A stretch of 64,000 nt of DNA. Source: an uncultured Flavobacteriaceae bacterium. GTDB lineage: Bacteria; Bacteroidota; Bacteroidia; NS11-12g; UBA955. Position 1 is the first letter of the stretch. Every line of letters begins with the position of its first letter. Where the stretch lies: assembly GCA_964586595.1 (NCBI GenBank), contig CAZPHB010000016.1, positions 39 through 64,038 of the forward strand, in the 5' to 3' direction. Below the pieces are notes generated by a model. That model saw nothing but the letters and a program-made list of their open reading frames with translations. It was not told where the DNA came from and did not search any database. Below are positions 1,532 to 64,000 of this stretch, one piece after another. The position numbers and the translations under genes were made by a program.

Positions 1532-1814
1532 ACCATACGGATAAGCAGAAGGCCGACCCGCTAACACGGGTTTTGCGTCAGGGGGGGTGCCCCCGTTTCG
1601 TACCTCACGGGGCAAACTTGGAGCTTTGTGTCCCGAAAGCTTTCGGGATTCAGTGCTGGGTTGACAATTTTGTGTGGCGAGGTTAGACTCGCCATCGCGA
1701 GCATGCCTCGCGACTCCCAAAACCGCCCGAACGCAAAGCCCGAAAACGTTAGCAGTAATTCTTTTTAAACTGACATGTAAGTCCCCCCAACAGCACCCAT
1801 ACCAACAACAAATT

Positions 1815-7110: not shown

Positions 7111-7581
7111 TCAGTAGGGTTTTTCTCCCTTTTCGATACGCAGGCCTACATCGCTTACATGCAGCAGCTGTTCATCGCGCATGTTTTGCCTGATGCTGAA
7201 ACGGTAGCTGCCTTTTTTCAGGATGCGGTAGCGCTGTTCCAGCGGAAGTTCGAAGCTGATTAAATCACCCACGCCCTTGCCCAGCCAGCGACCGGTATTG
7301 TCGGCCAGCATCAGCGGATATTGTTTCACGCCGGAACCATCGGGCCCCTGCGTATGCAGCAAAATGTACATGTTTGCGTAGCGATAGGCCCCGGTTACGC
7401 GCATGGTCAGGATCAGACGGTATTCATAGGCCGGTTCGTCCAGGTTTGCCGTGAAGCTGAGGCTGTCGTTCCAATGCCAGCTTCTGTTGCGTACCGGTTT
7501 GGTTTCATCGAAAACCACTCCTTCCGGCAATCCACAGGAAGCCAGCAGAACCAAGGGCAAAAGGAACTTCAAGCGTTTCAC
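7111..7581 (-). CDS. small lipoprotein, GldH-like (gliding-motility lipoprotein), tentative
   Basis: Lipobox 'LLASCG'; length ~156 aa; overall resemblance to GldH recalled from Flavobacteria; not verified. Confidence 0.45.
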   Translation of the reverse strand: MKRLKFLLPLVLLASCGLPEGVVFDETKPVRNRSWHWNDSLSFTANLDEPAYEYRLILTMRVTGAYRYANMYILLHTQGPDGSGVKQYPLMLADNTGRWLGKGVGDLISFELPLEQRYRILKKGSYRFSIRQNMRDEQLLHVSDVGLRIEKGEKPY

Positions 7582-48842: not shown

Positions 48843-48886
48843 AATAAGGCCGAGTGCAACAAAAATGCAAAGATTGATTCAAGGCA

Positions 48887-50461: not shown

Positions 50462-51427
50462 TTATTCATGCTCCGGAATGCCTGCTTTTTGCGCACCCAG
50501 CCAACGCTCGGCATCCAAGGCAGCCATGCATCCGCTGCCTGCTGCAGTAACCGCCTGGCGATAGGTTTTATCTTGAGCATCGCCACAACAGAACACCCCG
50601 GCTACGTTGGTATAGGAACTTCCCGGCTTGGTTTGAATATAACCTTGCTCATCCATGTCCAGGAAATTTTTGAAGATGCCTGTATTGGGTGTATGGCCAA
50701 TGGCCACGAAGAAGCCTTTCACCGGAAGTTCGCGCATTTCACCGGTCTGACTGTTTTTCACCCGAACGGCTTCCACCATTTTATCACCCAGCACTTCGTC
50801 GGTTTCGGAATTGAACAACACTTCAATGTTTGGGGTTTGCAGTACCCTTTGCTGCATGGCTTTGCTGGCGCGGAAATGATCCTTGCGCACAATCATGTAC
50901 ACCTTGGTGCATATTTTGGCCAGGTAACTGGCTTCTTCACAGGCGGTATCGCCGGCGCCCACGATGGCCACATCCTGACCGCGGTAAAAGAATCCGTCAC
51001 AAACGGCGCAGGCACTCACACCGCTGCCGTTCAGTCGCTGTTCGCTGGGCAATCCAAGCCACTTGGCACTGGCGCCGGTGGCGATGATGACGGTTTCTGC
51101 AATAATTTCTTTGCTGTCGTCAACCACCACTTTATGAGGCGCACCCTTGCTGAAGTCAACCGCGGTAACCATTCCATAGCGAATGTCTGTACCCAATCGT
51201 TCTGCCTGCTTCTTGAACAATTCCATCATTTCGGGACCCATCACACCCTCCGGAAATCCGGGATAATTTTCTACATCGGTGGTGATGGTGAGTTGCCCGC
51301 CGGGCTGCAATCCTTCATATAACACAGGCTTCATGTCCGCCCTTGCCGCGTAAATAGCCGCGGTATATCCTGCCGGTCCTGATCCAATAATCAGGCATTC
51401 CACTTTTTCTGCTGCAGTATTGCTCAT
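50462..51427 (-). CDS. trxB: thioredoxin-disulfide reductase
   Basis: 'GSGPAGYTAAIYAAR' FAD site; redox 'CAVCDG'; 'GAGDTACEEA' NADPH site. Confidence 0.9.
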   Translation of the reverse strand: MSNTAAEKVECLIIGSGPAGYTAAIYAARADMKPVLYEGLQPGGQLTITTDVENYPGFPEGVMGPEMMELFKKQAERLGTDIRYGMVTAVDFSKGAPHKVVVDDSKEIIAETVIIATGASAKWLGLPSEQRLNGSGVSACAVCDGFFYRGQDVAIVGAGDTACEEASYLAKICTKVYMIVRKDHFRASKAMQQRVLQTPNIEVLFNSETDEVLGDKMVEAVRVKNSQTGEMRELPVKGFFVAIGHTPNTGIFKNFLDMDEQGYIQTKPGSSYTNVAGVFCCGDAQDKTYRQAVTAAGSGCMAALDAERWLGAQKAGIPEHE

Positions 51428-51540: not shown

Positions 51541-52398
51541 TCAGTCGCAATCATTGCTGAAATGGAACAGATAGATTCCGTCCACGGTATCGTCGCTGCT
51601 GCCTATGTCCTTGCGCACGATCTGACAACGCAGGGATTTGATTTTTACACCCGCAGGCAATGTGGGGAAAAATACCTGAGGCCTGAGCTGAAAGGTAAAC
51701 AAGCCGGATGACTTTTCTTTCATGGCCAACTGAGGATTATTCCCTGTTTGCAGGATGGAAGCAATTTGGTAGGTAAGCCCGTCTGTACCCAAGCCCTGCG
51801 CAAAAACATACAGGTCCTTCACTCCTTTCATGGACGCTTTTTCTTCCATGTTGTTGTTGTAAATCAAGGTGAATACGTCGTTGCTGCTGGTAGGCACGGT
51901 ATCCATTTTCAAGGTTTGCGGAAAGCTGGATACTTTGAGTGCTTCGGTTTTTGGACGCTCAACTTTGATGCTGAGGTCTTCGGTTTTGTCTTCGTTGCAG
52001 CCTCCGCCACCGGCGCCGGTTCCGTCTTTTTTCTTCACCAGCAACATGAAGCCTTTGTCGTAGATTTCACCTGCGGTGACGCCGTAGAATTTCGTAGGAA
52101 CCATGCGGTAATACCACACATCATTTCCGGCGGGGGTCATCTTCAACTCCTCGTTGCTGCTGCCCCATTGTCCGTTGAAGGTGGGATCGGAAGCGGCCCG
52201 GTCCTTGGGCGACCAGGTCCAGATATACAATGGTTCCGCGCTGCCTATCAGTCGCTGGCAATCGCACTTCTTGATATCTACCCAAATGGTGATGGAATCG
52301 TCCGGATTGATGGGATCCGGGGTAATCCAGGCTTTTTGGGCTGAGGCCGCGAAGCTGCCAAAGGCAAATAAGGCGGCACTGAGTATAATCCTGTTCAT
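51541..52398 (-). CDS. secreted hypothetical protein, PUL-associated (possible SusE/F-like surface protein)
   Basis: Signal peptide MNRIILSAALFAFGSFAASAQ; directly downstream of SusC/SusD and a lipoprotein. Confidence 0.45.
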   Translation of the reverse strand: MNRIILSAALFAFGSFAASAQKAWITPDPINPDDSITIWVDIKKCDCQRLIGSAEPLYIWTWSPKDRAASDPTFNGQWGSSNEELKMTPAGNDVWYYRMVPTKFYGVTAGEIYDKGFMLLVKKKDGTGAGGGGCNEDKTEDLSIKVERPKTEALKVSSFPQTLKMDTVPTSSNDVFTLIYNNNMEEKASMKGVKDLYVFAQGLGTDGLTYQIASILQTGNNPQLAMKEKSSGLFTFQLRPQVFFPTLPAGVKIKSLRCQIVRKDIGSSDDTVDGIYLFHFSNDCD

Positions 52399-52403
52399 GT
52401 TGC

Positions 52404-52898
52404 TTAAGATTTACGGGTGAACCAAAGGTGATAGCTGGTGGTGCGTTTGCCCTTGCAGCGCTTGTCGAGTTTCAACACCAAATTGGCATCCTGCGGGCGC
52501 ACGGGGCGCAGCAGCTTCATGCTGAGTTCCTCAGCGCTGGCTTCGTCAAAAATTACGCTTGAGGGATATTGCACATCGTCGAACTTCCAACTGCCGCTGG
52601 CCTTGGGAAACAGGTTGTACGAGGTTCCTGCATCCAGCGTGTAGGTGAAGTCTGCCGATTTGATGTCCAGGGTCATGGGATTGCTGCCCAGAAACACATC
52701 GCTCACCTCCAGCAAGGTATCGCTTTCTACGAAGGCCAGGGTTTTGGTCACATCAATCTGGTCCACACGGGTAAGTACCCAGTTGGCGTTGATGCCTTCC
52801 AGCTTGCTGGCCGGCTCCCCGATTTTCTTGATTTCTTTCTTGCAGGCTGTCAGTCCAAAGAACAACAGCGTCATGCATATAAAGGTAAACTTTTTCAT
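52404..52898 (-). CDS. small lipoprotein, PUL-associated
   Basis: Lipobox 'LTAC'; 164 aa; immediately downstream of susD. Confidence 0.5.
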   Translation of the reverse strand: MKKFTFICMTLLFFGLTACKKEIKKIGEPASKLEGINANWVLTRVDQIDVTKTLAFVESDTLLEVSDVFLGSNPMTLDIKSADFTYTLDAGTSYNLFPKASGSWKFDDVQYPSSVIFDEASAEELSMKLLRPVRPQDANLVLKLDKRCKGKRTTSYHLWFTRKS

Positions 52899-52913
52899 AT
52901 CCTGGTAAGTTTA

Positions 52914-54302
52914 TTAATCGCAGCCTCCGGTTGGGTTTAAGGGGAAGATGCTGGTTTGGTCGGAAATTGGGAATTGAAGGATGAAGCCCTTGCAATCCCA
53001 GGCGTGCCCACGCACGATGATGTTCTGTTTCTCTACGGCTGCCAAACGTTTCAAATCGTGGATGCGGTCGCCTTCAAACATCAGTTCCATGCGGCGCTGG
53101 TAGCGGGCTGCTTCGATGATTTGGGTAGCGGTGGAGCCGGCAGCAAGGATGCGGTTGTTGTTTTTGTAGGCGCGTCCGATGATGGCGTTCATGTCGGCGA
53201 TGGCGGTGCTCAGGTCTGTTCCGGTTTGGGCCAGGGCTTCAGCCCTGATCAGGTGGAGGCGCGTGAGGTGCAGCACGGGCACATCAAACAAGGGAGCGTT
53301 GTACAAATTGGTTTTAACCAATTCGTTCGCCTGACCCTTGTTCAGGGTTTCATAGTACGCCAAACGTTTATCGGCAGTATCGGTGTTTACGGTACTGAAA
53401 AACTGCCTGGATACCTGACACAGCGGCAATCCGGGTGAGTAGTTGTCGCGGAAGCCGCCGCCCCGGTTGTCGTTAATCCCTGTGCTCACTACCGAGAAGA
53501 TGGCCTCGGTAGCGCCTTTCGGAGTGAAGCGGTTCAGGGTATCAGAGAAGGTGTAACGTGCGCTGTTGATGACTGCAGAAGCCTGCGCAGCGGCATCGCC
53601 GTATTCACCCTGCTGGAAATACACTTCTGCCAACAAGGCCTGCGCCGCATATTTCGTCGCATAGTTTCCATTGCTTTCCGGAAGCAGGGTCGCAGCGTCC
53701 TTCAGGTCGCTGATGATCGACGCATAAGCCGCAGCCACGCTGCTGCGCGCCAAAGGTGTGCGGTCTGCCTTCAAAGCCAACCCGATGCCCGGATGGCTGT
53801 TGTCCGCCGAATAGCCCCAGGGATGCGCAAACAAACGCACCGCCGTGAAATGACACATCGCGCGGATGAATTTGGCTTCGCCTTCCATCCGGTTGCGGTC
53901 TGCTTCATTCAAATCAGCCGCCAGCGGAAAGCGCTCCATCACGAAGTTGGCGCGGAAAATGGCGCGGTACAGATTGCCATACAGCGATCCAATGGTGGTA
54001 TTGAAGAACAGGGTATTGTGGTTGAATACCTCGCGGTAGTCGTTGTTGTTCGGCAGGCTCAGGTTGTCGGCCATAAATTCCGAAATCACCTGCGCAAAAC
54101 CGCCGTAGGTATTGGCCACTTCATTGTAGCTGCCATTGAGCAGTTTCTGAAGGTCAGCACTGGTCTTTACGGCATCTTCCACCAAGAGTTCATTCTCCGG
54201 ACGGGTATCAATCATCTTATCGCAGCCGGCTGCAAAAACGCCCAGTGCAAATACAGCCAGAGCGGCGGTGAGGGTGCGGTTCTTGAAAATCGTGTAGTTC
54301 AT
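52914..54302 (-). CDS. susD: RagB/SusD family nutrient-uptake outer membrane lipoprotein
   Basis: Lipobox 'FAAGC'; TPR-like SusD fold; paired with the upstream SusC. Confidence 0.85.
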   Translation of the reverse strand: MNYTIFKNRTLTAALAVFALGVFAAGCDKMIDTRPENELLVEDAVKTSADLQKLLNGSYNEVANTYGGFAQVISEFMADNLSLPNNNDYREVFNHNTLFFNTTIGSLYGNLYRAIFRANFVMERFPLAADLNEADRNRMEGEAKFIRAMCHFTAVRLFAHPWGYSADNSHPGIGLALKADRTPLARSSVAAAYASIISDLKDAATLLPESNGNYATKYAAQALLAEVYFQQGEYGDAAAQASAVINSARYTFSDTLNRFTPKGATEAIFSVVSTGINDNRGGGFRDNYSPGLPLCQVSRQFFSTVNTDTADKRLAYYETLNKGQANELVKTNLYNAPLFDVPVLHLTRLHLIRAEALAQTGTDLSTAIADMNAIIGRAYKNNNRILAAGSTATQIIEAARYQRRMELMFEGDRIHDLKRLAAVEKQNIIVRGHAWDCKGFILQFPISDQTSIFPLNPTGGCD

Positions 54303-54313
54303 CGTTCGCTGCT

Positions 54314-57300
54314 TTAGAAGTTTACAGATAATGAGATGCTGTAGGATTTCTCCTGTGGCGCGGTGAGGTAGGTAATGCTGCCGCTCATGTTTCGGTCTGT
54401 GGGACTTTCAAAATCGCGGGCAATTTCAGGATCCAGGCCGGTATAATTGGTCCAGGTGAGCAGGTTTGTGGCAATGAAGGCAATGCGTGCCCCATCGAGG
54501 TTGTATTTCTTCGCTACGGAAGAAGGAAGCCTGTAGCCCACAGACAAGGAGCGCAAACGTACATAAGAACCGTCTTCCAGCCACTGCGTGGTATTGATCC
54601 AGGGCGTGGTGGAACCATAAGTGAAGGTGTTCAGGGTGCGGCGTGGATACCTCGCATCATCACCGGGCTTCTGCCAACGGTCGAATACGCGGGGATCGCT
54701 GTTCCAGTCGGTTTGCACACCCAACTGACGCTTGGCAGAAGATTCGTAGATGTCGCCGCCAATGCTGTAGTAAATATTCGCGGTCAGATCCCAGTTCTTA
54801 TAGCTGAAGCTGTTGTTCAATGAACCTATGGCTTCGGGAAGTACATCGCCCACAGGAACGCGGTTGGCCGGATCCCAACTCTTGGTTTCCTTGCCTTCTT
54901 TGTCCAGATATACCGGAAGTCCGGTGGCTTGATCAATATGGGAGAAGCGGACCAGGAAGTTCGTTCCCACGGGATAGCCAACCACCACACGCGTGTCGTT
55001 GGTTCCGCCGGAAACCGCATCTTCGCTGTACACGCCGATGCTGGTGATCTCGTTGTAGTTGCGGGCAATGTTGAAATCGGTGTTCCACTGGAAATTCTTC
55101 CGTTGGATGTTCTTGCTTTTCAGTACAAACTCCACGCCCCTGTTGATGATGCCGCCCACGTTGTCGTACATGCTGTAAAAGCCGGTGGTGCGGGGCACGG
55201 TAACATCCAGGATGACGTCTTTCGTGGCTTTGTCGTAATAAGTCAGTTCGAAGCTGATGCGGTTCTTGAACAAACTGCCTTCCAGCGTCGCATCGAAGTT
55301 GCGGGTGCTTTCCCAGCGCAGGTTCTGGTTCTCCAGACGCGCGGGTGCCAGCATCGGCTGACCATTGTACTGCGGCAGGTTGCCGGATGGGGTGATGGTT
55401 CCCCAACGGGCATAGTTGTCGAAGGAAGCATTGCCGGATTTTCCGATGCCTACCTTCACCTTCAGGAAGCTGATCCAGTCGTGGCGCTTGATGAATTCCT
55501 CATCGCTCAGGATATAACCCACCGCAGCGGCGGGGAAGAATCCGTAGCGGTTGTTGCGTCCGAAGCGGGAAGACCCGTCCACGCGCCCTGTTAATTGCAC
55601 GTTGAACTTGTTCTTGAACTTGTAGTTCGCCCTTCCGAAGTAACTCAAAAAGGCCCACTCGTAAGGCGTTCTGCCGAAGGCGCGCAAAGCGGTATCAGGA
55701 ATCGCTACCTTGTCTGTAGGACCGGTGGCATCCAGGTTTTCTACCGATTTGCTGGTGGTACGGGATTGCTGGTATTCATGACCAAGCATCACATTCACAC
55801 CGTGATCGGGTGTAATCTTCTTGTTCCAGTTGGCCGTGAGGTAATAGTTCATGTTGGAGGTCCAGATGGGGAACCACTTGGCTACGCCATTCTGCACATA
55901 ATTGGGACTGTAATAGCGAATGAGCTCCTGGGGTTCGTACAGAAATTCGCCGTAATCCATATAGTCATAGCTGGCGCTGCCGTTCAGGGTGATGTCGTCA
56001 GTCACCTCATAATTCAGGTTCAGGTTGTTGATGCTGCGCATTTCAATGCTGCGCCAGTCTTTCAGGTCGCGGATGGTACCAAGTCCAACCGGCGTTCTGT
56101 AGCCAATGCCATTGCTGTTCAGCAATGGTTCTTCGGGGAAGATGGGCAGCATGGTGCTCATAGCAGAACCCAGACCACCGGCCCAGGCCGCGTCCACCCT
56201 GCGGTTGATGCCTCGGCTCAGCGAATTGCTCAGGCTGATGTTCAGGCCTTTCAGCGGTTTGTAATCGGTATTCACCCTGCCGCTGAGGCGCTGATAATTG
56301 TTGCCGGCAAGGAATGATTCGTTATTGTCATAAGTAACAATGCTCTTCATGCCGAACCATTTATTGGTGTAACCGGCGGTGATGTTGTAGTTCTGTTTGT
56401 ATCCGGTCTGAATCACATCATCCACCCAGTTGGTATTGTATTTCTGGGCTTCCTGCCAGGTCATGTTCACGTTGATGAGCCCCAGATCCGGCGTTCCGGT
56501 GCGGCCATCGTTTTCCCAGGCTTCCTGGTACATCTGGAGAAATTCAGGACCATTCAGCATGCGAGGGGTTTTCGTTGGCTGGGAAATGCCGAATCGGGTC
56601 GAAACATCGAACTTCAAACCCTTCTTGCGGGCGCGCTTGGTGGTAATCAGGATTACCCCATTGGCGCCGCGTGAGCCGTAAATACTGGTGGCGGCGGCAT
56701 CCTTCAGAATTTCCACCGATTCAATATCATCGGGGTTGATGGTAGCCAGTGGGTTGTTGTTGAAGCCGGAGCCGAAGTTGCTGCCGTTGGAACGGTTCAG
56801 GAAATAATCCTGCGACACCGGAATTCCGTCAATCACGTACAAGGGGTCACCGGCGGCTGAAATGGACGCCACCCCGCGTATGCGGATCAGCGAAGCCGAA
56901 CCGGCCATACCGCTTCCCACCACTACCTGCACGCCGGGCGCCTTGCCTTGCAGGGCCGCCTCAAAACTGGGCGCCGGAATTTCAGCAATTTCCTTACCTG
57001 AAACCCGGGCAATCGAACCGGTAAGATCTCGTCGGTTCTGACGGCCATAGCCAATGATGACAATGGGATCTGCGCCTACGGATTTGGCAACGAGTTGCTT
57101 ATCCAGCACAAGGCTCTGCCCATCGCTCAGGTTGATGATTTCTTCGGAAGCTTCCAGTTGTTCGGAAGAAAAAACCACGGTATAAGTTCCTGCGGCAAGA
57201 CCCTGAATCAGGTAAGTACCGCTTTCGTTGGTCGCCGCCGACTTGTTCGCACCTTTCAGGCGCACAGTAACACCTGACAGGGCTTCACCTTTGTCGCCGG

Positions 57301-57406
57301 TCACTTTACCTGCCAGCGACGCCGTCTGAGCCCACAGATTGGCACCTCCAAAGAATAGCAGCAATCCGGGCAGCAAGCCTTGCAATCGTATCGTTCGAAG
57401 CATCAT
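54314..57406 (-). CDS. susC: SusC/RagA family TonB-linked outer membrane protein
   Basis: 1030 aa; carboxypeptidase-regulatory-like N-domain; TonB-box plug; C-terminal beta-barrel ending in F. Confidence 0.9.
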   Translation of the reverse strand: MMLRTIRLQGLLPGLLLFFGGANLWAQTASLAGKVTGDKGEALSGVTVRLKGANKSAATNESGTYLIQGLAAGTYTVVFSSEQLEASEEIINLSDGQSLVLDKQLVAKSVGADPIVIIGYGRQNRRDLTGSIARVSGKEIAEIPAPSFEAALQGKAPGVQVVVGSGMAGSASLIRIRGVASISAAGDPLYVIDGIPVSQDYFLNRSNGSNFGSGFNNNPLATINPDDIESVEILKDAAATSIYGSRGANGVILITTKRARKKGLKFDVSTRFGISQPTKTPRMLNGPEFLQMYQEAWENDGRTGTPDLGLINVNMTWQEAQKYNTNWVDDVIQTGYKQNYNITAGYTNKWFGMKSIVTYDNNESFLAGNNYQRLSGRVNTDYKPLKGLNISLSNSLSRGINRRVDAAWAGGLGSAMSTMLPIFPEEPLLNSNGIGYRTPVGLGTIRDLKDWRSIEMRSINNLNLNYEVTDDITLNGSASYDYMDYGEFLYEPQELIRYYSPNYVQNGVAKWFPIWTSNMNYYLTANWNKKITPDHGVNVMLGHEYQQSRTTSKSVENLDATGPTDKVAIPDTALRAFGRTPYEWAFLSYFGRANYKFKNKFNVQLTGRVDGSSRFGRNNRYGFFPAAAVGYILSDEEFIKRHDWISFLKVKVGIGKSGNASFDNYARWGTITPSGNLPQYNGQPMLAPARLENQNLRWESTRNFDATLEGSLFKNRISFELTYYDKATKDVILDVTVPRTTGFYSMYDNVGGIINRGVEFVLKSKNIQRKNFQWNTDFNIARNYNEITSIGVYSEDAVSGGTNDTRVVVGYPVGTNFLVRFSHIDQATGLPVYLDKEGKETKSWDPANRVPVGDVLPEAIGSLNNSFSYKNWDLTANIYYSIGGDIYESSAKRQLGVQTDWNSDPRVFDRWQKPGDDARYPRRTLNTFTYGSTTPWINTTQWLEDGSYVRLRSLSVGYRLPSSVAKKYNLDGARIAFIATNLLTWTNYTGLDPEIARDFESPTDRNMSGSITYLTAPQEKSYSISLSVNF

Positions 57407-57585: not shown

Positions 57586-59778
57586 TTATAGCAAATGAAA
57601 CACCCCTTTGAACAGGTCGGTGATGCTGCACACGCTCTTCCCGCGGATCACATAGATGTACACGCCTTTGGGCGCAGGACGGCCTTGATACGTGCCATCC
57701 CAGAATGTTTTCTTATCGGTAGTGGAAAACACCATTTCGCCCCAGCGGTTGTAGATCTCGCAGCGGTAGGATTCCAGTTCCTCCAAACCCGTAATCTGAA
57801 AGGTTTCATTCAGCGCATCTCCGTTGGGACTGAACGCATTCGGAATCAGCAGCGTATAACCCGGTATTTCCTCGCGCACCCGAAACTGCCAGGTGCTGTC
57901 GTAACATCTGTTTTTCAAGTTTACCCAGTAGTTACCGGGCGTATCCACCTCCAGTATGCGGCCGCGGGCGCCTGTGCTCCACAAAACCTGAGTGGCCGGC
58001 GGTGGATTTACCGTGATAAATGTGCTGTTGCGGTTCTTGCAGATCACATACATCTCGTCCACCGGGCGCTGCGGCTCCGGAAGGTAATTCACTGTAAATG
58101 TATCCTCCCACACTTTGCAGGCAAATACCAGTTGGCGGCGGTATATGCCCGACGCTTTCACCTCAAGACTGTCGCCGCTGCCCAGCAGGCGGCCATCGCG
58201 ATACCAGTTGGAGCGCAACTGCCCGTAGAAAGCATTGCCGCCAACCACATACCTTGCACCCGTGCACAACAGTGTATCCGGCAGCCGTGCAGGCGTTTGT
58301 ATGGCCACCGCACGGAAGGATGCAGTGGAACTGTCTAGCAGATTGCAGCTCCAGCGGTAGTAAACCGTGGTCTTGTAGGTACCTGTATCAATTGGTGTGA
58401 ACTGCAGCGAATCGCCGGCGGTTTCATACAACACCCGGCCATCCGGACCGGTAATCTTGCAGCGCAGGCGGATGAAATCCCGGTAATAATCCGCTTTTAT
58501 TAAATGCGCAATACCCACACAGGCCGTTTTGCCCTGCAACACCCGAACCCCGGGGTTGTAGTAGGCGCCGAAAGGGATGTAGTATTGATGAGTAAAATAT
58601 GGGTTGTAAGCATCAAATGAATCTATGGGGAAACCATTATAAGCACTTTGATCAATACTATCCCAGGGAATATAAAACGATTCAGGTTCATAACCGCAGG
58701 CCAATCCTTCCCGATCCGGGTAGGGAATGATGTCCGGATATTTCCTGGTGGTGATGCCCACTAACAATTGACCGGTGGGTAGTAAGTGAATGAAGGGGCT
58801 ACCGACCGAACCTTTTTGATACCCTCTGATGGCGATGGTTTGTGCCTTGATGCTGTCTTTATGCAACACCGTAATATCGGCCTGGTACAGCGTATCCCGA
58901 TGTATGTAATACAACTTCCGTCCATTCAGCGAATAACTCAGCGTGCCACTGATCGGACTGGGAAGCAGCATCAGGGACTCCGGGTCAATCCGCATTTTCT
59001 CCCGATCAAAGCGATGCACGCCAAAACCACGAACATCTCCGCTTAGTATGCAATGACTTAAATCAGGCGAAAACGCGTAGATCTTTGCACGACCGGGTGT
59101 AGTAGGTGAACCTTTCAAAGACTGCATCACCCGCCGTACACATTTGCCATTCACAACCTCTGCCATCTCCGTAAAGTAAACCTCAGGAAATCCGGCTCTT
59201 TTATTCGAGCCGCCGCCATATAGAAATATCTTTGAACAATCAGGAGTGTATATAACATTATCTACATAATTGAATAAGTTATAATTATAAAACAGCATAG
59301 TGGTATCATAAAATCGGGAAGAATCATCATTGAAATTCATCAGATAAGGAAAAGAATAGGGGTATTTTTTTGTATAATATAAATTATCATAATAACGCAA
59401 AATACTTGAACGATGATAATCGGGCATCTGCAGCATGAAAGTGTACCACAAATTACATTTTTCATAATTGGGGAAGGCGCTGTCGGCCTGCAGGTAGCGG
59501 TTTACGATGCGTTCCCCGCATTGTTTGCCGTTCAGTTTTACCCCCAGATAAAAATCACCCGCAGAGTCGGTTAAATAAGACATGCATTGGTTAAACGATG
59601 TATTAAATTGGGTAGGCTTGTAAAATCTTGGCGGATACTGTTTAAAATCCATGACATACCCGCGATCGCCAATGGACCAGATATTGTGGTTCCTGAGCTG
59701 CGCCTGCAAAATATCCGGACTCATGGCCCCCAGCAGGGCCATGAGTCCGAATAACATGCGTTTCAATGGGGGAATCAT
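57586..59778 (-). CDS. secreted protein with T9SS type-B (gliding-motility-associated) C-terminal domain, paralog copy 1
   Basis: Start chosen at M11 (ATG 59776-59778; signal peptide MIPPLKRMLFGLMALLGAMSPDILQAQ) overlapping the upstream stop as TAATG; C-terminus 'LLIPNAFSPNGDALNETFQITG...YRCEIYNRWGEMVF...KGVYIYVIRG'. Confidence 0.7.
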   Translation of the reverse strand: MIPPLKRMLFGLMALLGAMSPDILQAQLRNHNIWSIGDRGYVMDFKQYPPRFYKPTQFNTSFNQCMSYLTDSAGDFYLGVKLNGKQCGERIVNRYLQADSAFPNYEKCNLWYTFMLQMPDYHRSSILRYYDNLYYTKKYPYSFPYLMNFNDDSSRFYDTTMLFYNYNLFNYVDNVIYTPDCSKIFLYGGGSNKRAGFPEVYFTEMAEVVNGKCVRRVMQSLKGSPTTPGRAKIYAFSPDLSHCILSGDVRGFGVHRFDREKMRIDPESLMLLPSPISGTLSYSLNGRKLYYIHRDTLYQADITVLHKDSIKAQTIAIRGYQKGSVGSPFIHLLPTGQLLVGITTRKYPDIIPYPDREGLACGYEPESFYIPWDSIDQSAYNGFPIDSFDAYNPYFTHQYYIPFGAYYNPGVRVLQGKTACVGIAHLIKADYYRDFIRLRCKITGPDGRVLYETAGDSLQFTPIDTGTYKTTVYYRWSCNLLDSSTASFRAVAIQTPARLPDTLLCTGARYVVGGNAFYGQLRSNWYRDGRLLGSGDSLEVKASGIYRRQLVFACKVWEDTFTVNYLPEPQRPVDEMYVICKNRNSTFITVNPPPATQVLWSTGARGRILEVDTPGNYWVNLKNRCYDSTWQFRVREEIPGYTLLIPNAFSPNGDALNETFQITGLEELESYRCEIYNRWGEMVFSTTDKKTFWDGTYQGRPAPKGVYIYVIRGKSVCSITDLFKGVFHLL

Positions 59779-61361
59779 TATTGCAACATGAGGCGGTTTA
59801 CATACCATGTATGGCCGGAGTTCACTTTCACCATATAAGAGCCCGCAGGAAGGCCGGGCAGGCTTATTTCACTGCCGGAAACCAGCTTTGGGTTTTCCAT
59901 CACCAAACGTCCGTTGAGGTCATAAACCAACAGCCTGCCGGTTTCGCCGGGCGACCAGCTCAGTTGGACCTTGCCCGAAGCCGGGTTGGGCGTGATGTGC
60001 AGTCGGCCCATAGGGTTTATTTCCCGTTTTTCTGCTGTTAGCGGGGCGGGTCCGGCAGGGTATTCATCGCAGTCTGAACTGCTGATGTTCCGGAAGCGTG
60101 CTGCGCTGATGGTGATGGTTTTGTAAGTGCTCCAGCCGCAGATATTACGCGTGCGCACCTTCACCGTAACGTCGCTGTTGGGATTCAATGCCCATGCCGA
60201 ACCAAAATCGCAAAAATCCGTGCCGATGGTCTGACCACTCAGGGTATAAGTACCGCTGCCATTGTCAAAACTCCATTCCCATTCCTCTATCGTTGGGTCG
60301 TCGTTCGTGGTCCAGAACAACACATTCCGACGGCAAACACAGAGATCACCCAACTCACCATCCCAGCTAATTTGAGGCATGTCCGGAACGCCCGCCGGAA
60401 TTTTAATGCGGTGCATCAGGATTTGTTCTCCGCAAGGAGAGGATGCTTTCAGGTCGATGTCCACAAAACCGAAATTCCCAGCATTAGCTGCCACGGTAAA
60501 AGTATAACAACGACCATTCTCAATTGCATTAGTAACAGTAGGAAGAGAAACGCTATCAGTACTACCCACCTGATAATCCCATTGATAATTGGTACAAGGC
60601 AGCGAATCTACGCACAGGGTAACCGTACCCGTGGAGCAGATTACATTCGGCCAAACGCCCGTTTTGGTGAGTTGCGGCATGCGGGTAATGGTCACCGAAC
60701 CGGTGTTTCCCGCAAGGGTTTTGTCGCAGCCTTTAGGCCATACGGTGACCTGTACCTTTGCCCCATTTTGACCATTGGCCGGCGTTACGAGCACAGAAGG
60801 ACTTCCCTGTCCTGAATTCAGTGTCCAGCCACCGGGTAGAGTCCATTCGTAGTTATAGTCACCACCACCACTTCCGGCTGAAAAAAAGTATGAGTTGTTA
60901 TCGCAACAGGGAATGTAATCTGGGCCTACAATGTTTACCACTTCCGGAGGACATTTGGGTGTTACCCAAATGGTTTTTGTGGCAAGGAATGTTTTTGAAG
61001 ACACACAAATCCGAGAAATTACATTTCCGGCAGTATCCGTGGTTTCTACCAACTGATACGTCACACAATAGGCATCGCAACGAAGGAAATTCCCACCTGC
61101 CGGACAATCCCATTTAACCACAGCACCTGTTGCACTTTGTGATTGAATCAAACCTCCTCCGCAAGACCATTCATATTGCGTTTCCGGGTTGTAGGTGACG
61201 CCGTTGGCTGTGCACGATTGCCCGGAACAATTGGCGCCAGTTAAACTCATGGTGTAGGAATAATTTACACCTTTACATGGATTAGTCTCGCCGCTCAGCG
61301 ACAGGGTTTGAGCCGATAGCCCCCCCCCGCAAGAACCAGACCAAGAATGCAGCCTTTCCAA
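59778..61361 (-). CDS. Cys/Trp-rich secreted protein with T9SS type-A (Por) C-terminal sorting domain; start ambiguous around a poly-G tract (may extend to ATG ~61403)
   Basis: C-terminus 'LHITPNPASGKVQLSW...LLVYDLNGRLVMEN...LPAGSYMVKVN'; the ORF track starts at TTG 61361 with no signal peptide, but an ATG ~40 nt upstream encodes MNIKFNFSLLRPSFWKGCILGLVLAGG in the adjacent frame. Confidence 0.7.
   Translation of the reverse strand: MERLHSWSGSCGGGLSAQTLSLSGETNPCKGVNYSYTMSLTGANCSGQSCTANGVTYNPETQYEWSCGGGLIQSQSATGAVVKWDCPAGGNFLRCDAYCVTYQLVETTDTAGNVISRICVSSKTFLATKTIWVTPKCPPEVVNIVGPDYIPCCDNNSYFFSAGSGGGDYNYEWTLPGGWTLNSGQGSPSVLVTPANGQNGAKVQVTVWPKGCDKTLAGNTGSVTITRMPQLTKTGVWPNVICSTGTVTLCVDSLPCTNYQWDYQVGSTDSVSLPTVTNAIENGRCYTFTVAANAGNFGFVDIDLKASSPCGEQILMHRIKIPAGVPDMPQISWDGELGDLCVCRRNVLFWTTNDDPTIEEWEWSFDNGSGTYTLSGQTIGTDFCDFGSAWALNPNSDVTVKVRTRNICGWSTYKTITISAARFRNISSSDCDEYPAGPAPLTAEKREINPMGRLHITPNPASGKVQLSWSPGETGRLLVYDLNGRLVMENPKLVSGSEISLPGLPAGSYMVKVNSGHTWYVNRLMLQ
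61320..61329 (-). repeat. homopolymeric poly-G (coding strand) / poly-C (+ strand) tract of 9-10 nt at the signal-peptide/body junction
   Basis: Read directly: 'gatagc' then 'ccccccccc' then 'gcaag'; exact length uncertain by +/-1 against the ORF-track frame. Confidence 0.8.
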
Positions 61362-61757
61362 AATGATGGCCGCAATAACGAAAAATTAAATTTTATGTTC
61401 ATGATATGTATATATTAGCATTGGCAAGATATTTTTTTTAATTCATAATTCCAAATGTAAGCACCTTTAGAAATCAAGGCCGTAATTATTTTTCCAGGCG
61501 CATTTTGCTGATTCAGATGGCCTTCGATCGGTTATGTTATTGATTTTCAATTAGTTAAATTCTTTTTGAAGCATTTCAGCAATAACCCGCTTCATGAGTT
61601 AGGTCAAAGATTCTTCCAGCAAAACAATCCTCAGCCCGGCACTTCCGTGCTGCCGTCGGCGTGTTTGGCGAAGCGGATTCGCAAAACCTACGATGACCAT
61701 GAAACAGCTAATACTCTGTTTTTGGCTGTGTAAAAGCGCTGAATACTTATGTCTTGC
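61362..61757. promoter_or_regulatory. AT-rich 396-bp intergenic region between cassette units (terminator of unit 2 / promoter and leader of the type-A-CTD gene)
   Basis: Markedly AT-rich compared with the flanks; the only sizeable noncoding gap in the tandem array. Confidence 0.5.
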
Positions 61758-63950
61758 TTATAGCAGGTGAAACACCCCCTTGAACAGTTTCACCTGCGTG
61801 CAGATGCTTTTGCCCCTTATCAGGTATATGTACACGCCTTTCGGTGCGGGTTTACCATTGATGGTGCCATCCCAGAATGTTTTCTTATCGGTAGTGGAAA
61901 ACACCATTTCGCCCCAGCGGTTGTAGATCTCGCAGCGGTAGGATTCCAGTTCCTCCAAACCCGTAATCTGAAAGGTTTCATTCAGCGCATCTCCGTTGGG
62001 ACTGAACGCATTCGGAATCAGCAGCGTATAACCCGGTATTTCCTCGCGCACCCGAAACTGCCAGGTGCTGTCGTAACATCTGTTTTTCAAGTTTACCCAG
62101 TAGTTACCGGGCGTATCCACCTCCAGTATGCGGCCACGTGCGCCGGTATTCCATGACACCGCAGTGGCCGGCGGTGGATTTACCGTGATAAATGTGCTGT
62201 TGCGGTCTTTGCAGATGACATACATCTCATCCACCGGCCGGGCAGGTTCCGGAATCACCTTCACCTCAAAAGTGTCTTCCATGGCCGTACAGCCAAAGTC
62301 TAAGCGACGGCGATACATACCCGCCTCACCAACCCTCAGGGTATCGCCCTGCTGCACATAGCGGTTGTTGTGGTACCAAGAGGTACTGCGTTGACCATAG
62401 CTACTGTCGCTGCGCAACAGGAATTGCTGGCCGTAACACAACACCGTATCCGGCAGCGGCGGCGGTGTGCGTATGGCTTGCACCCGGAAGTTGCTGTGCG
62501 CGCTGTCCAGCAGGTTGCAGCTCCAGCGGTAATAAAGTGTGGTGCGGTAGGTGCCGGTATCGGCAGGTGTAAAGCGGAAGGAATCCGCGTAGGACACATA
62601 TACCACTTTACCCGAAGGGTCACTCACCTTCCATTCCATACGAATAAAATCGCGGTAGTAATCGGCCTTCACCGCGTGCGGTACCCCGGCACAGGCCGTG
62701 CGCCCTTGAACCACCTGAACACCAGGGTTGTAGTAGGCGCCGAAAGGGATGTAGTCCTCATCAGGGAAATATGGGTCGTAAATATCAAATGAATCTATGG
62801 GGAAACCATTGTAAGCACTTTGATCAATACTATCCCAGGGAATGTAAAACGATTCAGGTTCATAACCGCAGGCCGCTCCTTCCCGATCCGGGTAGGGAAT
62901 AATGTCCGGATATTTCCTGGTAGTGATGCCCACCAACAATTGACCGGTGGGCAGTAAATGGATGAAGGGGCTGCCGACCGAACCTTTTTGATACCCTCTG
63001 ATGGCGATGGTTCTGGCCTTGATGCTGTCTTTATGTAGCACCGTAACATCGGCCTGGTACAGCGTATCCCGATGTATGTAATACAACTTCCGTCCATTCA
63101 GCGAATAACTCAGCGTGCCACTGATCGGACTGGGAAGCAGCATCAGGGACTCCGGGTCAATCAGCATTTTCTCCCGATCAAAGCGATGTATGCCAAAACC
63201 ACGCGCATCTCCGCCTAATATGCAATGACTTAAATCTGGAGAAAATGCGTAGATCTTTGCACGACCGGGTGTAGAAGGTGAACCTTTTAAAGACTGTATC
63301 ACCCGCCGTACACATTTGCCATTCACAACCTCTGCCATCTCCGTAAAATAAACCTCAGGAAATCCGGCTTTTTTATTGGAGCCGCCGCCATATAGAAATA
63401 CCCTTGAACAATCAGGGGTGTATATCACATTTCTAACAATATTACTAAAATTATAATTTGAAAAAATTATGGAAGTATCGGTGAAACGGGAAGTATCCGC
63501 AGACAAATTTAGAAGATAATGAAATCCATCAGGATAACGTTTGGTATAATAATAATGGCTGTAATAGCGCAATATACTTGAACGATGATGATCTGGCATC
63601 TGTAGCATGAAGGTGGACCACCAACCGCAATCTTCATATTTGGGGAAGGCGCTGTCGGCCTGCAGGTAGCGGTTTACGATGCGTTCCCCGCATTGTCTGC
63701 CGTTCAGTTTTACACCCAGATAAAAATCACCCGCAGAGTCGGTTAAATAAGACATGTATCGGCTAAAAGAGGAATTATATTCGGTAGGCTTGTAAAACGT
63801 TGGCGGATACTGTTTGAAATCCACAACATACCCGCGATTGCCAATGGACCAGATATTGTGGTTCCTGAGCTGCGCCTGCAAAATATCCGGACCCATGGCC
63901 CCCAAGAGGGCCATGAGTCCGAATACTATGCGTTTCAAGGGGTGAGCCAT
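61758..63950 (-). CDS. secreted protein with T9SS type-B C-terminal domain, paralog copy 2
   Basis: Start at M11 (ATG 63948-63950, signal peptide MAHPLKRIVFGLMALLGAMGPDILQAQ), again a TAATG overlap with the upstream gene; C-terminus identical in type to copy 1. Confidence 0.7.
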   Translation of the reverse strand: MAHPLKRIVFGLMALLGAMGPDILQAQLRNHNIWSIGNRGYVVDFKQYPPTFYKPTEYNSSFSRYMSYLTDSAGDFYLGVKLNGRQCGERIVNRYLQADSAFPKYEDCGWWSTFMLQMPDHHRSSILRYYSHYYYTKRYPDGFHYLLNLSADTSRFTDTSIIFSNYNFSNIVRNVIYTPDCSRVFLYGGGSNKKAGFPEVYFTEMAEVVNGKCVRRVIQSLKGSPSTPGRAKIYAFSPDLSHCILGGDARGFGIHRFDREKMLIDPESLMLLPSPISGTLSYSLNGRKLYYIHRDTLYQADVTVLHKDSIKARTIAIRGYQKGSVGSPFIHLLPTGQLLVGITTRKYPDIIPYPDREGAACGYEPESFYIPWDSIDQSAYNGFPIDSFDIYDPYFPDEDYIPFGAYYNPGVQVVQGRTACAGVPHAVKADYYRDFIRMEWKVSDPSGKVVYVSYADSFRFTPADTGTYRTTLYYRWSCNLLDSAHSNFRVQAIRTPPPLPDTVLCYGQQFLLRSDSSYGQRSTSWYHNNRYVQQGDTLRVGEAGMYRRRLDFGCTAMEDTFEVKVIPEPARPVDEMYVICKDRNSTFITVNPPPATAVSWNTGARGRILEVDTPGNYWVNLKNRCYDSTWQFRVREEIPGYTLLIPNAFSPNGDALNETFQITGLEELESYRCEIYNRWGEMVFSTTDKKTFWDGTINGKPAPKGVYIYLIRGKSICTQVKLFKGVFHLL

Positions 63951-64000
63951 TACTGTAACATGAGGCGGTTTACATACCATGTATGGCCGGAGTTCACTTT
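63950..64000 (-). CDS. 3' end (last ~16 codons) of a third gene, homologous to the type-A-CTD gene at 59778..61361, truncated by the window edge
   Basis: The reverse complement of 63950-64000 encodes ...KVNSGHTWYVNRLMLQ*, identical to the C-terminus of the 59778..61361 product. Confidence 0.5.
   Translation of the reverse strand, partial: KVNSGHTWYVNRLMLQ

What the first reader, a model, noticed from the sequence alone, without database searches (positions are those of the whole stretch)
57586..64000. Tandemly duplicated two-gene T9SS cargo cassette (type-A CTD gene coupled to type-B CTD gene)
A 4172-bp unit is repeated head-to-tail at least twice; a third copy begins at the window edge. Each unit has a ~527-aa Cys/Trp-rich protein with a Por-type (type A) C-terminal sorting domain. 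Its stop overlaps, as TAATG, the start of a ~730-aa protein with a gliding-motility (type B) CTD. Long stretches are 100% identical between units, implying recent duplication or gene conversion. Neither protein has a recognisable catalytic domain. Type-B CTD cargo normally sits next to a dedicated porP/sprF-like gene, which is absent here. The consistent pairing with a type-A protein may therefore represent an undescribed cargo/partner arrangement.
Basis: partly seen in the sequence, partly recalled or inferred. Interest (0 to 1): 0.75.

Follow-up and report, generated by a model that had tools for sequence, protein, structure and literature searches.

The report
Duplicated, recombining T9SS surface-protein operon
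An uncultured Bacteroidota genome carries tandem, recombining copies of a two-gene operon for non-enzymatic secreted surface proteins, and a variable run of G's in the first gene's signal-peptide region may switch it on and off.

Summary
On the minus strand, a gene for a type-A-CTD protein (A) ends in TAATG, which starts a 730-aa type-B-CTD protein (B). The unit recurs at a 4172-bp period, and both CTD calls pass curated HMM cut-offs. The window holds only 1.54 units: two B genes, one A gene and the last 51 nt of a second A. There is no third copy. The B copies are 82.7% identical and mosaic, so the duplication is not recent.

A is a string of Ig/PKD-like domains. B is a divergent beta-propeller-like domain, Ig-like repeats and the CTD. 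Both look like adhesin-type surface proteins under purifying selection.

The "novel cargo/partner" reading is weak:
- Orphan type-B substrates served by an unlinked PorP/SprF shuttle are already described.
- Only about 8% of 80 diverse type-B loci had a porP/sprF neighbour.
- A is reduced to a stub in two relatives whose B stays intact.

The more interesting feature was missed. A G9 tract in A's signal-peptide region puts the start codon out of frame. The tract sits at the same position in homologous loci with lengths 6, 8 or 9. It differs (G8 vs G9) between alleles with identical mature proteins. This suggests a phase-variation switch, but it is unproven.

The parts
57586..59778 (-). Gene B1, 730 aa. 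It has a signal peptide (MIPPLKRMLFGLMALLGAMSPDILQA|Q), a divergent beta-propeller-like N-domain (about aa 30-420), Ig-like repeats (about aa 430-640) and a type-B T9SS CTD (aa 645-730).
   Evidence: ORF. TIGR04131 scores 60 bits and PF13585 scores 73.8 bits. The N-domain is linked to a widespread unannotated N-terminal domain of type-B cargo. dN/dS against relatives is 0.20-0.29.
59776..59780 (-). TAATG junction. The A1 stop (TAA, 59780-59778) shares one base with the B1 start (ATG, 59778-59776).
   Evidence: The same junction is seen in L001, L002, L005, L007 and both L089 units.
59778..61402 (-). Gene A1. The ATG at 61402-61400 encodes a signal peptide (MNIKFNFSLLRPSFWKGCILGLVLAGG...). The mature part (LSAQTLSL... 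to the stop at 59778) is in another frame. It consists of 4-5 Ig/PKD-like beta-sandwich domains plus a type-A T9SS CTD.
   Evidence: TIGR04183 scores 41.9 bits, with PF18962 and PF19408 matches. The AF2 model has pLDDT 75.8, above 85 for residues 10-310. Foldseek hits are Ig-domain strings. dN/dS is 0.12-0.34.
61320..61328 (-). Poly-G tract (G9 on the coding strand, C9 on the + strand) at the end of A1's signal-peptide coding region. A length of 7 or 10 would join the signal peptide to the mature protein. At G9 the ATG frame stops after 35 codons.
   Evidence: It is the longest G/C run in the window. G/C runs of 6 or more number 4, against 28.7 +/- 5.3 in shuffles. Homologous loci carry G6, G8, G9 or G6TG at the same site. 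Alleles with identical mature proteins carry G8 (P0033) or G9 (P0202).
61452..61459 (-). TACATTTG, a match to the Bacteroidota -7 promoter motif TAnnTTTG, about 50 nt upstream of the A1 ATG. It is the likely promoter of the A1-B1 operon.
   Evidence: Many of the 19 window matches sit just upstream of gene starts (for example 12791, 13198, 36475, 41107, 45057, 51432). No such motif lies directly upstream of B1 or B2. Promoter function is inferred.
61631..61675 (-). Remnant of the 3' end of a Pirin-family gene (RFAKHADGSTEVPG*) in the spacer between B2 and A1. It is a footprint showing that unit A1-B1 was copied from a Pirin-adjacent site.
   Evidence: L002, L005, L089 and L092 all have an intact Pirin gene directly upstream of the cassette.
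61758..63950 (-). Gene B2, 730 aa (identical to database protein P0003). It is a chimera. Codons 1-420 and 601-720 resemble B1 (89-95% nt). Codons 421-600 resemble a second allele type (92-94% to L089b, L005 and L007, but only 61-64% to B1).
   Evidence: TIGR04131 scores 62.9 bits.
63950..64000 (-). Last 51 nt of a second A gene (A2), including its TAATG junction with B2. It is cut by the window edge.
   Evidence: 90-100% identical to the A1 3' end.

Best explanation
The region holds at least two tandem copies of a two-gene operon (promoter, A, TAATG, B). The operon belongs to a small multi-copy family in a deep-branching, uncultured Bacteroidia lineage.

Both products are non-enzymatic cell-surface proteins exported by the type IX secretion system. 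A is a string of Cys/Trp-rich Ig/PKD-like domains with a type-A CTD. By analogy with characterised type-A cargo, it would pass through PorV and be attached to the surface. B is a beta-propeller-like head on Ig-like stalk domains with a type-B CTD. It has no linked porP/sprF gene, so it is an "orphan" type-B substrate. It most likely uses a PorP/SprF-like shuttle encoded elsewhere, as the three F. johnsoniae orphans do.

The copies diversify by exchanging whole blocks between old, diverged alleles (segmental gene conversion), not by local positive selection.

Expression of A is probably gated by a hypermutable poly-G tract in its signal-peptide region. B may be gated too, through the overlapping stop/start. 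Slippage to G7 or G10 restores the signal peptide (ON). The G6, G8 and G9 lengths seen in assemblies are OFF.

Shown here: the gene anatomy, the CTDs, the folds (A well, B partly), the mosaicism, purifying selection, conservation of the tract position and its length polymorphism. Inferred: surface/adhesin function, the unlinked shuttle, phase switching and translational coupling.
For: **Anatomy and CTDs.**

**The tandem array is real.**
- The two copies differ at 17% of positions.
- A complete two-unit array (Pirin | A-B | A-B | acetyl-CoA synthetase) sits inside a 111.7-kb contig, L089.

**Domain architecture.**
- A is an Ig-domain string.
- B's N-domain matches a widespread propeller-like N-terminal domain of type-B cargo. 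The profile search gave full-length matches to P0069, P0080, P0094 and others.
- That family weakly matches 6-phosphogluconolactonase, WD40 and TolB propellers.
- hhalign of B1 against the family gives probability 81%.

**Mosaic recombination.**. Synonymous divergence is 0.16-0.2 in some blocks and 1.3-2.5 in others, with dN/dS of 0.14-0.45 everywhere.

**Orphan type-B precedent.** PMC12618676. A third orphan type-B gene and gldH lie in the same window.

**Poly-G switch.**
- The tract is at the same codon position in WIN (G9), L089b (G9), L007 (G8), L005/L006 (G6) and L002/L092 (G6TG).
- P0033 (G8) and P0202 (G9) have 515 of 515 identical mature residues.
- The signal peptide is conserved only in the ATG frame.
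- Frame-disrupted A genes keep ORFs of more than 510 codons and dN/dS of 0.12-0.34.
- A tract-free paralogue, L089a, is intact at 546 aa.
- G/C runs are otherwise seven-fold depleted.

**Operon.** A TAnnTTTG motif lies upstream of A only.
Against: - No ON-length (G7 or G10) tract allele was seen among about 14 informative sequences. Given roughly 6 independent states, this is only mildly unexpected by chance (about 0.09). It leaves real switching undemonstrated.
- The same OFF length recurs in several assemblies (G8 at least 4 times, G9 at least 4 times). Switching therefore cannot be very fast at the consensus level.
- The L002/L092 allele has an interrupted tract plus a second 1-nt deletion and an early stop. 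Some A copies are plainly dead.
- A is deleted to stubs in L001 and L005.
- The B model is poor (pLDDT 50.8, below 50 for residues 1-176). The propeller assignment rests on sequence profiles only.
- No signal-peptide predictor, read data, expression data or genome-wide porP search was available.
- By base composition alone, one G9 in 64 kb is not improbable (0.48 expected).
Confidence: 0.6

Rival explanations
1. The type-A protein A is a dedicated partner of B, for example a surface anchor or chaperone that replaces the missing PorP/SprF-like protein. The pair would then be a new cargo/partner system.
For: A-to-B adjacency with an overlapping stop/start occurs in every locus of the family. A distant B homologue, P0008 in L091, is also directly preceded by a type-A-CTD gene with a 20-nt gap. 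No porP/sprF gene lies in the window or in L001, L089 or L092.
Against: - A is a 40-aa stub in L001 and a 140-aa remnant in L005, yet B there is intact with dN/dS of 0.24 and 0.09.
- A is out of frame with its signal peptide in every tract-bearing allele.
- The L091 upstream protein shares only the CTD with A. The other distant homologue, L090, has no adjacent type-A gene.
- Type-A neighbours occur next to 6-9% of unrelated type-B genes anyway.
- A folds as soluble Ig domains, not a membrane barrel.
- Orphan type-B substrates already have a known solution.
Confidence: 0.1
2. A is simply a decaying gene. The poly-G length differences, internal deletions and extra indels are ordinary pseudogenisation. 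Only B, plus the short 3' piece of A that carries B's translation start context, is functional.
For: All tract-bearing alleles are OFF. There are large deletions in L001, L005/L006 and probably L003/L004. L002 and L092 have a second frameshift and a stop. The last approximately 80 nt of A are always retained, and the last approximately 50 nt visible in both window copies are 90-100% identical.
Against: - Pairs of OFF alleles show dN/dS of 0.24 (WIN vs L002, dS 0.23), 0.34 (L089b vs L007, dS 0.17) and 0.12 (WIN vs L089b). Neutral decay would give about 1.
- More than 510 codons carry no stop.
- A proper signal peptide is preserved in the ATG frame despite about 50% nucleotide divergence between allele types.
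- The tract-free copy L089a is fully intact.
Confidence: 0.18
3. A is expressed from the "OFF" templates without DNA change, by transcriptional slippage of RNA polymerase on the G run or by ribosomal frameshifting. This would give constitutive low-level expression rather than heritable on/off switching.
For: The same OFF lengths recur across independent assemblies and ON lengths are never seen, yet the gene body is under purifying selection. From my own knowledge, slippage at homopolymer runs of about 9 nt is established for some bacterial genes.
Against: G8 needs -1 or +2, whereas G9 and G6 need +1. No single directional frameshift rescues all alleles. Length differences between identical alleles show that the DNA tract itself mutates. 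The known productive slippage sites I am aware of are mostly A/T runs (own knowledge, not tested here).
Confidence: 0.12
4. The tandem arrangement in this window is an assembly artefact, for example a chimeric MAG contig joining two separate cassette sites through shared repeat sequence.
For: The source contig (64,925 nt according to the database entry for P0003) ends inside or just beyond the cassette. Several related contigs also break inside it (L092 ends in B, L002-L008 are 3-6 kb). The B2-A1 spacer carries a Pirin-gene remnant typical of the other genomic site. The near-identical relative L001 has a single B at this site.
Against: - The copies are 17% divergent, so this is not a collapsed or duplicated read pile.
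- The Pirin remnant is only 45 nt, not a whole Pirin gene, as expected of an old duplication junction rather than a mis-join.
- An independent long contig, L089, shows the same two-unit tandem architecture flanked by unique genes.
Confidence: 0.07

Closest known systems
Orphan type-B CTD substrates of Flavobacterium johnsoniae (Fjoh_1123, Fjoh_1720, Fjoh_4934) served by the unlinked PorP/SprF-like shuttle Fjoh_1677 (PMC12618676)
   Same: B has a type-B CTD above the curated threshold. It looks like a non-enzymatic putative adhesin. No porP/sprF-like gene is adjacent.
   Different: The shuttle has not been identified here. B's N-terminal domain is a divergent propeller-like module. The gene is fused by a stop/start overlap to a type-A cargo gene and is multi-copy and mosaic.
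SprB/SprF and Fjoh_3952/Fjoh_3951 cognate type-B substrate/shuttle pairs (PMC9143113, PMC12618676)
   Same: Both involve T9SS type-B cargo that is probably retained on the cell surface.
   Different: The defining genetic linkage, a porP/sprF-like gene directly downstream, is absent. The downstream neighbours are a SusC-like gene (after B1) or the next cassette (after B2).
Simple-sequence-repeat contingency loci, such as poly-G tracts in the reading frames of Neisseria hmbR, hpuAB and lgt genes and of Campylobacter surface-structure genes (PMC3786947, PMC2192423, PMC6321876)
   Same: There is a G homopolymer of 6-9 nt in the 5' coding region of a surface-protein gene. Frame depends on tract length. 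Length differs between otherwise identical alleles. The locus is multi-copy and recombining.
   Different: The organism is an environmental, uncultured Bacteroidota and the gene is a T9SS cargo gene. No ON allele or within-population heterogeneity has been observed yet. My three literature searches found no report of SSR switching of T9SS cargo.
Large CHU_C / "gliding motility-associated C-terminal domain" adhesin-like proteins with PKD and Ig_7 repeats (Cytophaga, Flavobacteriia, Chitinophagia)
   Same: The C-terminal half of B (Ig-like repeats plus CHU_C) matches 160,566 representatives of this class. A subset shares the roughly 380-aa N-terminal propeller-like domain.
   Different: B is short (730 aa, against 1,100-7,000 aa). 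Its N-domain is highly diverged with insertions, at about 17-25% identity.

Membership tests
T9SS type-A CTD cargo (TIGR04183 / PF18962 Por_Secre_tail) | C-terminal sorting domain scoring above the curated threshold | tested here: met
   A1 residues 456-526 score 41.9 bits against TIGR04183 (cut-off 23) and 36.8 bits against PF18962 (cut-off 27).
T9SS type-A CTD cargo (TIGR04183 / PF18962 Por_Secre_tail) | N-terminal Sec signal peptide in frame with the mature protein | tested here: not met
   The signal-peptide-like N-terminus (ATG 61402) is out of frame at G9. The in-frame TTG start gives MERLHSWSGSCGGG, with no hydrophobic core. It would be met at G7 or G10, and it is met in paralogue L089a. 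This was judged by eye; no signal-peptide predictor was available.
T9SS type-B CTD cargo (TIGR04131 / PF13585 CHU_C) | C-terminal sorting domain scoring above the curated threshold | tested here: met
   B1 scores 60.0 bits and B2 scores 62.9 bits against TIGR04131 (cut-off 35). They score 73.8 and 73.1 bits against PF13585 (cut-off 27).
T9SS type-B CTD cargo (TIGR04131 / PF13585 CHU_C) | N-terminal Sec signal peptide | tested here: inconclusive
   MIPPLKRMLFGLMALLGAMSPDILQA|Q has the n/h/c-region layout of a signal peptide by inspection. No predictor was available.
Cognate type-B substrate / PorP-SprF shuttle gene pair | A porP/sprF-like gene (PF11751) adjacent to the type-B cargo gene, usually directly downstream | tested here: not met
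   No PF11751 match was found in about 45 window ORFs or in the called genes of L001, L089 and L092. SusC lies downstream of B1 and the next cassette lies downstream of B2.
Organism with a T9SS / gliding apparatus | Core gld/por/spr genes present in the genome | tested here: inconclusive
   Only GldH (7111-7581, PF14109 at 107 bits) lies in the window. The rest of the genome was not available.
SSR (homopolymer) phase-variable contingency locus | Homopolymeric tract in the 5' coding region whose length sets the reading frame | tested here: met
   The G9 tract at 61320-61328 lies between the signal peptide and the mature protein. Only lengths equal to 1 mod 3 are in frame.
SSR (homopolymer) phase-variable contingency locus | Tract length polymorphic between otherwise identical or near-identical alleles | tested here: met
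   P0033 (G8) and P0202 (G9) have 515 of 515 identical mature residues. P0203 (G9) is 99.0% identical to P0033. Tract lengths for these were inferred from the upstream reading frame of the database proteins.
SSR (homopolymer) phase-variable contingency locus | Both ON and OFF lengths occur | tested here: not met
   Only G6, G8, G9 and G6TG (all OFF) were seen in about 14 informative sequences. No database homologue of about 545 aa starts with the MNI/MNV signal peptide.
SSR (homopolymer) phase-variable contingency locus | Length heterogeneity within one population, with a reversible expression switch | not testable with these tools
   This needs read-level data or culture work.
Tandem gene duplication with segmental gene conversion | Head-to-tail repeat with a constant period, and blocks whose nearest relative changes along the gene | tested here: met
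   The period is 4172 bp. For B2, codons 421-600 are 92-94% identical to L089b, L005 and L007 but 61-64% to B1. Codons 181-420 are 92-98% identical to B1 and L002 but about 51-64% to L089b. A 272-nt perfect run is also present.
Translationally coupled gene pair | Overlapping stop and start codons conserved across homologues | tested here: met
   TAATG is present in the window twice and in L001, L002, L005, L007, L089 (twice) and L092. Functional coupling was not testable.

The most novel reading that the evidence does not exclude
The poly-G tract is a true contingency switch. It stochastically turns a T9SS surface-protein operon on and off in a free-living, uncultured Bacteroidota. Through the overlapping stop/start it may control both the type-A and the type-B cargo. 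Block exchange between tandem and dispersed paralogues adds antigenic or adhesive variation. This would be a Neisseria-style variable surface system built on T9SS cargo, perhaps driven by phage or grazer pressure.
Probability: 0.3. Interest if true: 0.7.

Novelty: new variant of a known kind. Interest (0 to 1): 0.45.

Why it matters
T9SS cargo genes often cluster and duplicate, and type-B substrates without a neighbouring porP/sprF gene are already known.

The new points are these:
- A type-A and a type-B cargo gene are locked together by a conserved stop/start overlap.
- The unit spreads to several genomic sites and reshuffles blocks between old alleles.
- A variable-length G tract sits exactly at the junction of signal peptide and mature protein.

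If the tract is a real switch, it would extend simple-sequence-repeat phase variation to T9SS surface proteins of environmental Bacteroidota. That mechanism is so far described mainly in host-adapted pathogens, and phase variation in Bacteroidota is known chiefly through invertible promoters. It would also give a simple sequence signature for finding such loci in metagenomes.

There is a practical warning as well. Gene callers annotate A from internal starts (449-538 aa, with no signal peptide), so this kind of cargo is systematically mis-annotated.

Tried and rejected
- **Source contig.** Exact-protein look-ups for B2 (731-aa version), P0003 and P0193 were not on record. I could not read past position 64000 to count units.
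- **Genome-contig scan.** The scan with the B alignment was dominated by the generic type-B CTD motif and returned no close relative or source genome. I reused its 80 loci as a base-rate sample instead.
- **Tandem Repeats Finder.** It finds nothing because the period exceeds its 500-nt limit.
- **B structure.** The AF2 model from a 10-sequence alignment was too poor (pLDDT 50.8) to justify a fold search.
- **Second divergent cassette.** I considered whether 46710-50452 (710 aa plus 521 aa on the same strand) was one. It is not. These are a SurA-like PPIase and a BNR-repeat protein.
- **L091 and L090 upstream proteins.** I tested whether they are A homologues. L091 shares only the CTD, and L090 shows no meaningful similarity (hhalign probability 7%).
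- **Intrinsic terminators and sigma-70 promoters.** Counts did not exceed the shuffles.
- **Positive selection.** I rejected it as the cause of the variable blocks, since dN/dS is 0.14-0.22 there with saturated dS.
- **Literature.** Three searches found no paper linking T9SS cargo to homopolymer phase variation. The library is incomplete, so this is weak evidence of novelty.

Full report
**1. What is in the sequence**

All genes of the finding lie on the minus strand. Reading 5' to 3' on that strand, the features are:
- the last 51 nt of a gene A2 (64000-63950);
- gene B2 (63950-61758, 730 aa);
- a 355-nt spacer;
- gene A1 (61402-59778);
- gene B1 (59778-57586, 730 aa);
- after 180 nt, a SusC-like and SusD-like gene pair (57406-52914).

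At both A/B junctions the TAA stop of A shares its last A with the ATG of B, giving TAATG. Direct-repeat search gives a constant offset of 4172 bp. The window therefore holds 1.54 units, not "at least two plus the start of a third".

Ungapped identity between the copies is 82.7% over 2243 nt. The pattern is strongly mosaic:
- one perfect 272-nt run (57692-57963);
- seven perfect runs of 42-115 nt;
- two blocks at 45-70% identity.

Similarity ends at the B stop codon.

**2. CTD assignments and domain content**

The CTD assignments hold.
- A matches TIGR04183 at 41.9 bits (cut-off 23) and PF18962.
- B1 and B2 match TIGR04131 at 60.0 and 62.9 bits (cut-off 35) and PF13585 at about 73 bits.
- Neither protein matches a catalytic family. 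A also has a PKD_6 match.

An AlphaFold model of mature A has mean pLDDT 75.8, above 85 for residues 10-310. It is a chain of beta-sandwich domains. Its best PDB matches are Ig-domain strings such as titin, contactins, S-layer proteins and the base of the Aureispira grappling-hook protein.

The model of B was poor (pLDDT 50.8), so B's architecture rests on sequence evidence.
- A profile of the B family searched against 1.84 billion representatives gave 160,566 hits to its C-terminal half (Ig-like repeats plus CTD).
- About 20 of the top 150 hits also matched positions of about 10-630. These carry a conserved, Pfam-unannotated N-terminal domain of about 380 aa in larger type-B cargo proteins.
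- That domain family weakly matches 6-phosphogluconolactonase-like, WD40 and TolB propellers in the PDB, with E-values from 2e-6 to 1e-4.
- B1 aligns to it with hhalign probability 81%.

B is therefore most likely a signal peptide, a divergent propeller-like head, Ig-like stalk domains and a type-B CTD. Both proteins look like adhesin-type surface proteins, not enzymes.

**3. The family and its genomic behaviour**

Both families are tiny. B has five close clusters and three distant ones, and A has six clusters. The window's DnaB is no more than about 63% identical to any taxonomically named sequence. The host is therefore a poorly sampled, uncultured Bacteroidia lineage.

In every related locus recovered, the A stop overlaps or directly precedes the B start.

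The key locus is L089, a 111.7-kb metagenome contig. It has a complete two-unit tandem array, ordered Pirin | A (546 aa) - B (738 aa) | A - B (740 aa) | acetyl-CoA synthetase. The tandem architecture is therefore real and not peculiar to this assembly.

The cassette occupies at least two genomic sites.
- At the Pirin|ACS site, L089 has two units, L002 and L005 have one, and L092 ends inside its first B.
- At the DUF5777|SusC site, the window has at least two units, and the 95%-identical relative L001 has one.

The window's B2-A1 spacer contains a 45-nt remnant of the Pirin gene's 3' end (61675-61631). This shows that unit A1-B1 came from the Pirin site.

Contigs often break inside the cassette. 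The source contig ends within about 925 nt of the window. Copy number in this genome therefore remains open.

**4. Mosaicism and selection**

I made a codon alignment of eight B genes. In it, B2 is 89-98% identical to B1 and L002 over most of codons 1-420 (69% in the divergent block at codons 121-180), and 93-94% identical to B1 over codons 601-720. Over codons 421-600 it is 92-94% identical to L089b, L005 and L007 but only 61-64% identical to B1.

Synonymous divergence between B1 and B2 is 0.16-0.20 in the shared blocks and 1.3-2.5 in the others. dN/dS is 0.14-0.45 throughout.

The variation is therefore block exchange between old alleles, with very recent conversion patches. A 272-nt perfect run has a probability of about 7e-5 at 94% identity. 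It is neither a recent duplication nor local positive selection.

All B pairs give dN/dS of 0.09-0.29 and all A pairs give 0.12-0.34. Both genes are functional.

**5. The porP/sprF argument**

No PF11751 match exists in about 45 window ORFs or in the gene lists of L001, L089 and L092. The absence is real, but it is not unusual.
- In F. johnsoniae, 9 of 12 type-B substrates have an adjacent sprF-like gene. The three orphans share the unlinked shuttle Fjoh_1677 (PMC12618676).
- In my survey of 80 diverse type-B loci, the immediate neighbour was PorP_SprF in 2 of 66 upstream and 4 of 76 downstream cases. It was a type-A CTD protein in 4 of 66 and 7 of 76 cases. This survey used crude ORF calls and a biased sample.
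- The window has a third orphan type-B gene (42055-45042) and gldH.
- A is reduced to a 40-aa in-frame stub in L001 and a 140-aa remnant in L005, while B there stays intact under purifying selection.

These results argue against A being B's obligatory partner.

**6.

The 527-aa A ORF begins at a TTG and has no signal peptide. An ATG at 61402 encodes a good one (MNIKFNFSLLRPSFWKGCILGLVLAGG...). It is out of frame with the mature protein because of a G9 run (61320-61328). Only G7 or G10 would be in frame.

The tract occupies the same position in homologous loci, with different lengths:

| Locus | Tract |
|---|---|
| L089b | G9 |
| L007 | G8 |
| L005/L006 | G6 |
| L002/L092 | G6TG plus a second indel |

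The paralogue L089a lacks the tract and is intact.

Database proteins P0033 and P0202 have 515 of 515 identical mature residues. Their upstream frames imply G8 and G9 respectively. The tract therefore mutates while the rest of the allele does not.

The signal peptide is conserved only in the ATG frame. G/C runs of 6 or more are seven-fold depleted in the window, at 4 against 28.7 +/- 5.3 in shuffles.

Together with purifying selection on the "frame-shifted" gene bodies, this fits a simple-sequence-repeat contingency locus.

There are caveats.
- No ON-length allele was seen.
- The same OFF lengths recur across assemblies.
- Some alleles are clearly dead.

Rival readings are pseudogene decay and expression by transcriptional slippage.

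A TAnnTTTG promoter motif lies about 50 nt upstream of A1, and none lies in front of B. This is consistent with a single operon in which the switch could also affect B through the overlapping stop/start. That last step is inferred.

**7. Verdict**

The anatomy, the period and the CTDs are right. The copy number and the claim of a recent duplication are overstated.

The "undescribed cargo/partner arrangement" is not supported. B is best seen as an orphan type-B substrate.

The locus is a lineage-specific, multi-copy, recombining operon for two T9SS surface proteins. Its genuinely interesting, and unproven, aspect is a probable poly-G phase switch in the first gene. I found no description of such a switch for T9SS cargo in three literature searches.

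I rate it a new variant of a known kind, with moderate interest.

Noticed in passing
window 42055-45042 (-): A third type-B CTD cargo gene (995 aa: DUF7948, SBBP beta-propeller repeat, PKD, CHU_C). It also has no porP/sprF neighbour. Its flanks are a flavin reductase and a class-II aminoacyl-tRNA synthetase.
   Followed up: partly
window 7111-7581 (-): A GldH lipoprotein gene (PF14109, 107 bits). It shows that the organism carries gliding/T9SS-associated machinery.
   Followed up: no
L001 1190-1312 (homologous to window 61402-61367 joined to 59859-59778): In a 95%-identical relative, gene A is reduced to a 40-codon ORF (MNIQLITLLLRPNKPGLPAGSYMVKVNSGHTWYVNRLMLQ*). It keeps the original ATG, is in frame, and still ends in the TAATG that starts B. 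This may preserve translational coupling, or the in-frame state may be chance (1 in 3).
   Followed up: partly
L001 3-854 (+), upstream of the cassette at the SusC site: A DUF5777 "membrane bound beta barrel" gene lies directly upstream of the stub-A/B unit. By synteny it probably lies just beyond the window edge. As far as I recall from Pfam, not checked here, PorP/SprF is also an outer-membrane beta-barrel family. A shuttle-like role is conceivable, but the Pirin-site cassettes (L089, L092) have no such neighbour.
   Followed up: no
L090 8795-14115 and L091 1027-3686: Both distant B homologues (P0006, P0008) sit next to a TPR-HisKA_3 histidine kinase and a LuxR/GerE-type response regulator. 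This is a possible regulatory link for that branch of the family. It is absent from the window's cassettes.
   Followed up: no
window 51541-57406 (-): A polysaccharide-utilisation-type cluster lies directly downstream of B1: a SusC-like TonB receptor (1030 aa), a SusD-like protein (462 aa), a 164-aa protein with no family match and a DUF4961 protein. Further downstream, beyond trxB (50462-51427), is a BNR-repeat (sialidase-like) protein (48887-50452). The arrangement is conserved in L001.
   Followed up: partly
window 1-2000: This is a low-GC segment (42%, against 50-57% elsewhere). It carries an Mrr-type restriction endonuclease gene (611-1531) and the window's only other G run of 7 or more (1581-1587). 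It may be horizontally acquired.
   Followed up: no
window, 19 sites (e.g. 12791, 13198, 36475, 41107, 45057, 51432, 61452): The Bacteroidota -7 promoter motif TAnnTTTG is rarer than chance overall (19 matches against 31 expected). Most matches sit a few to about 50 nt upstream of gene starts, so the motif is a useful promoter marker in this genome.
   Followed up: partly
window 59778-61361 and database proteins P0029, P0185-P0194: Public annotations of gene A start at internal Met, TTG or GTG codons (449-538 aa) and so lack the signal peptide. Frame disruption at the poly-G tract causes systematic mis-annotation of this cargo family.
   Followed up: yes
window 38191-41085 (+): A 964-aa fusion of a GH3 (NagZ-like) glycosidase domain and a serine beta-lactamase/transpeptidase-like domain.
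   Followed up: no
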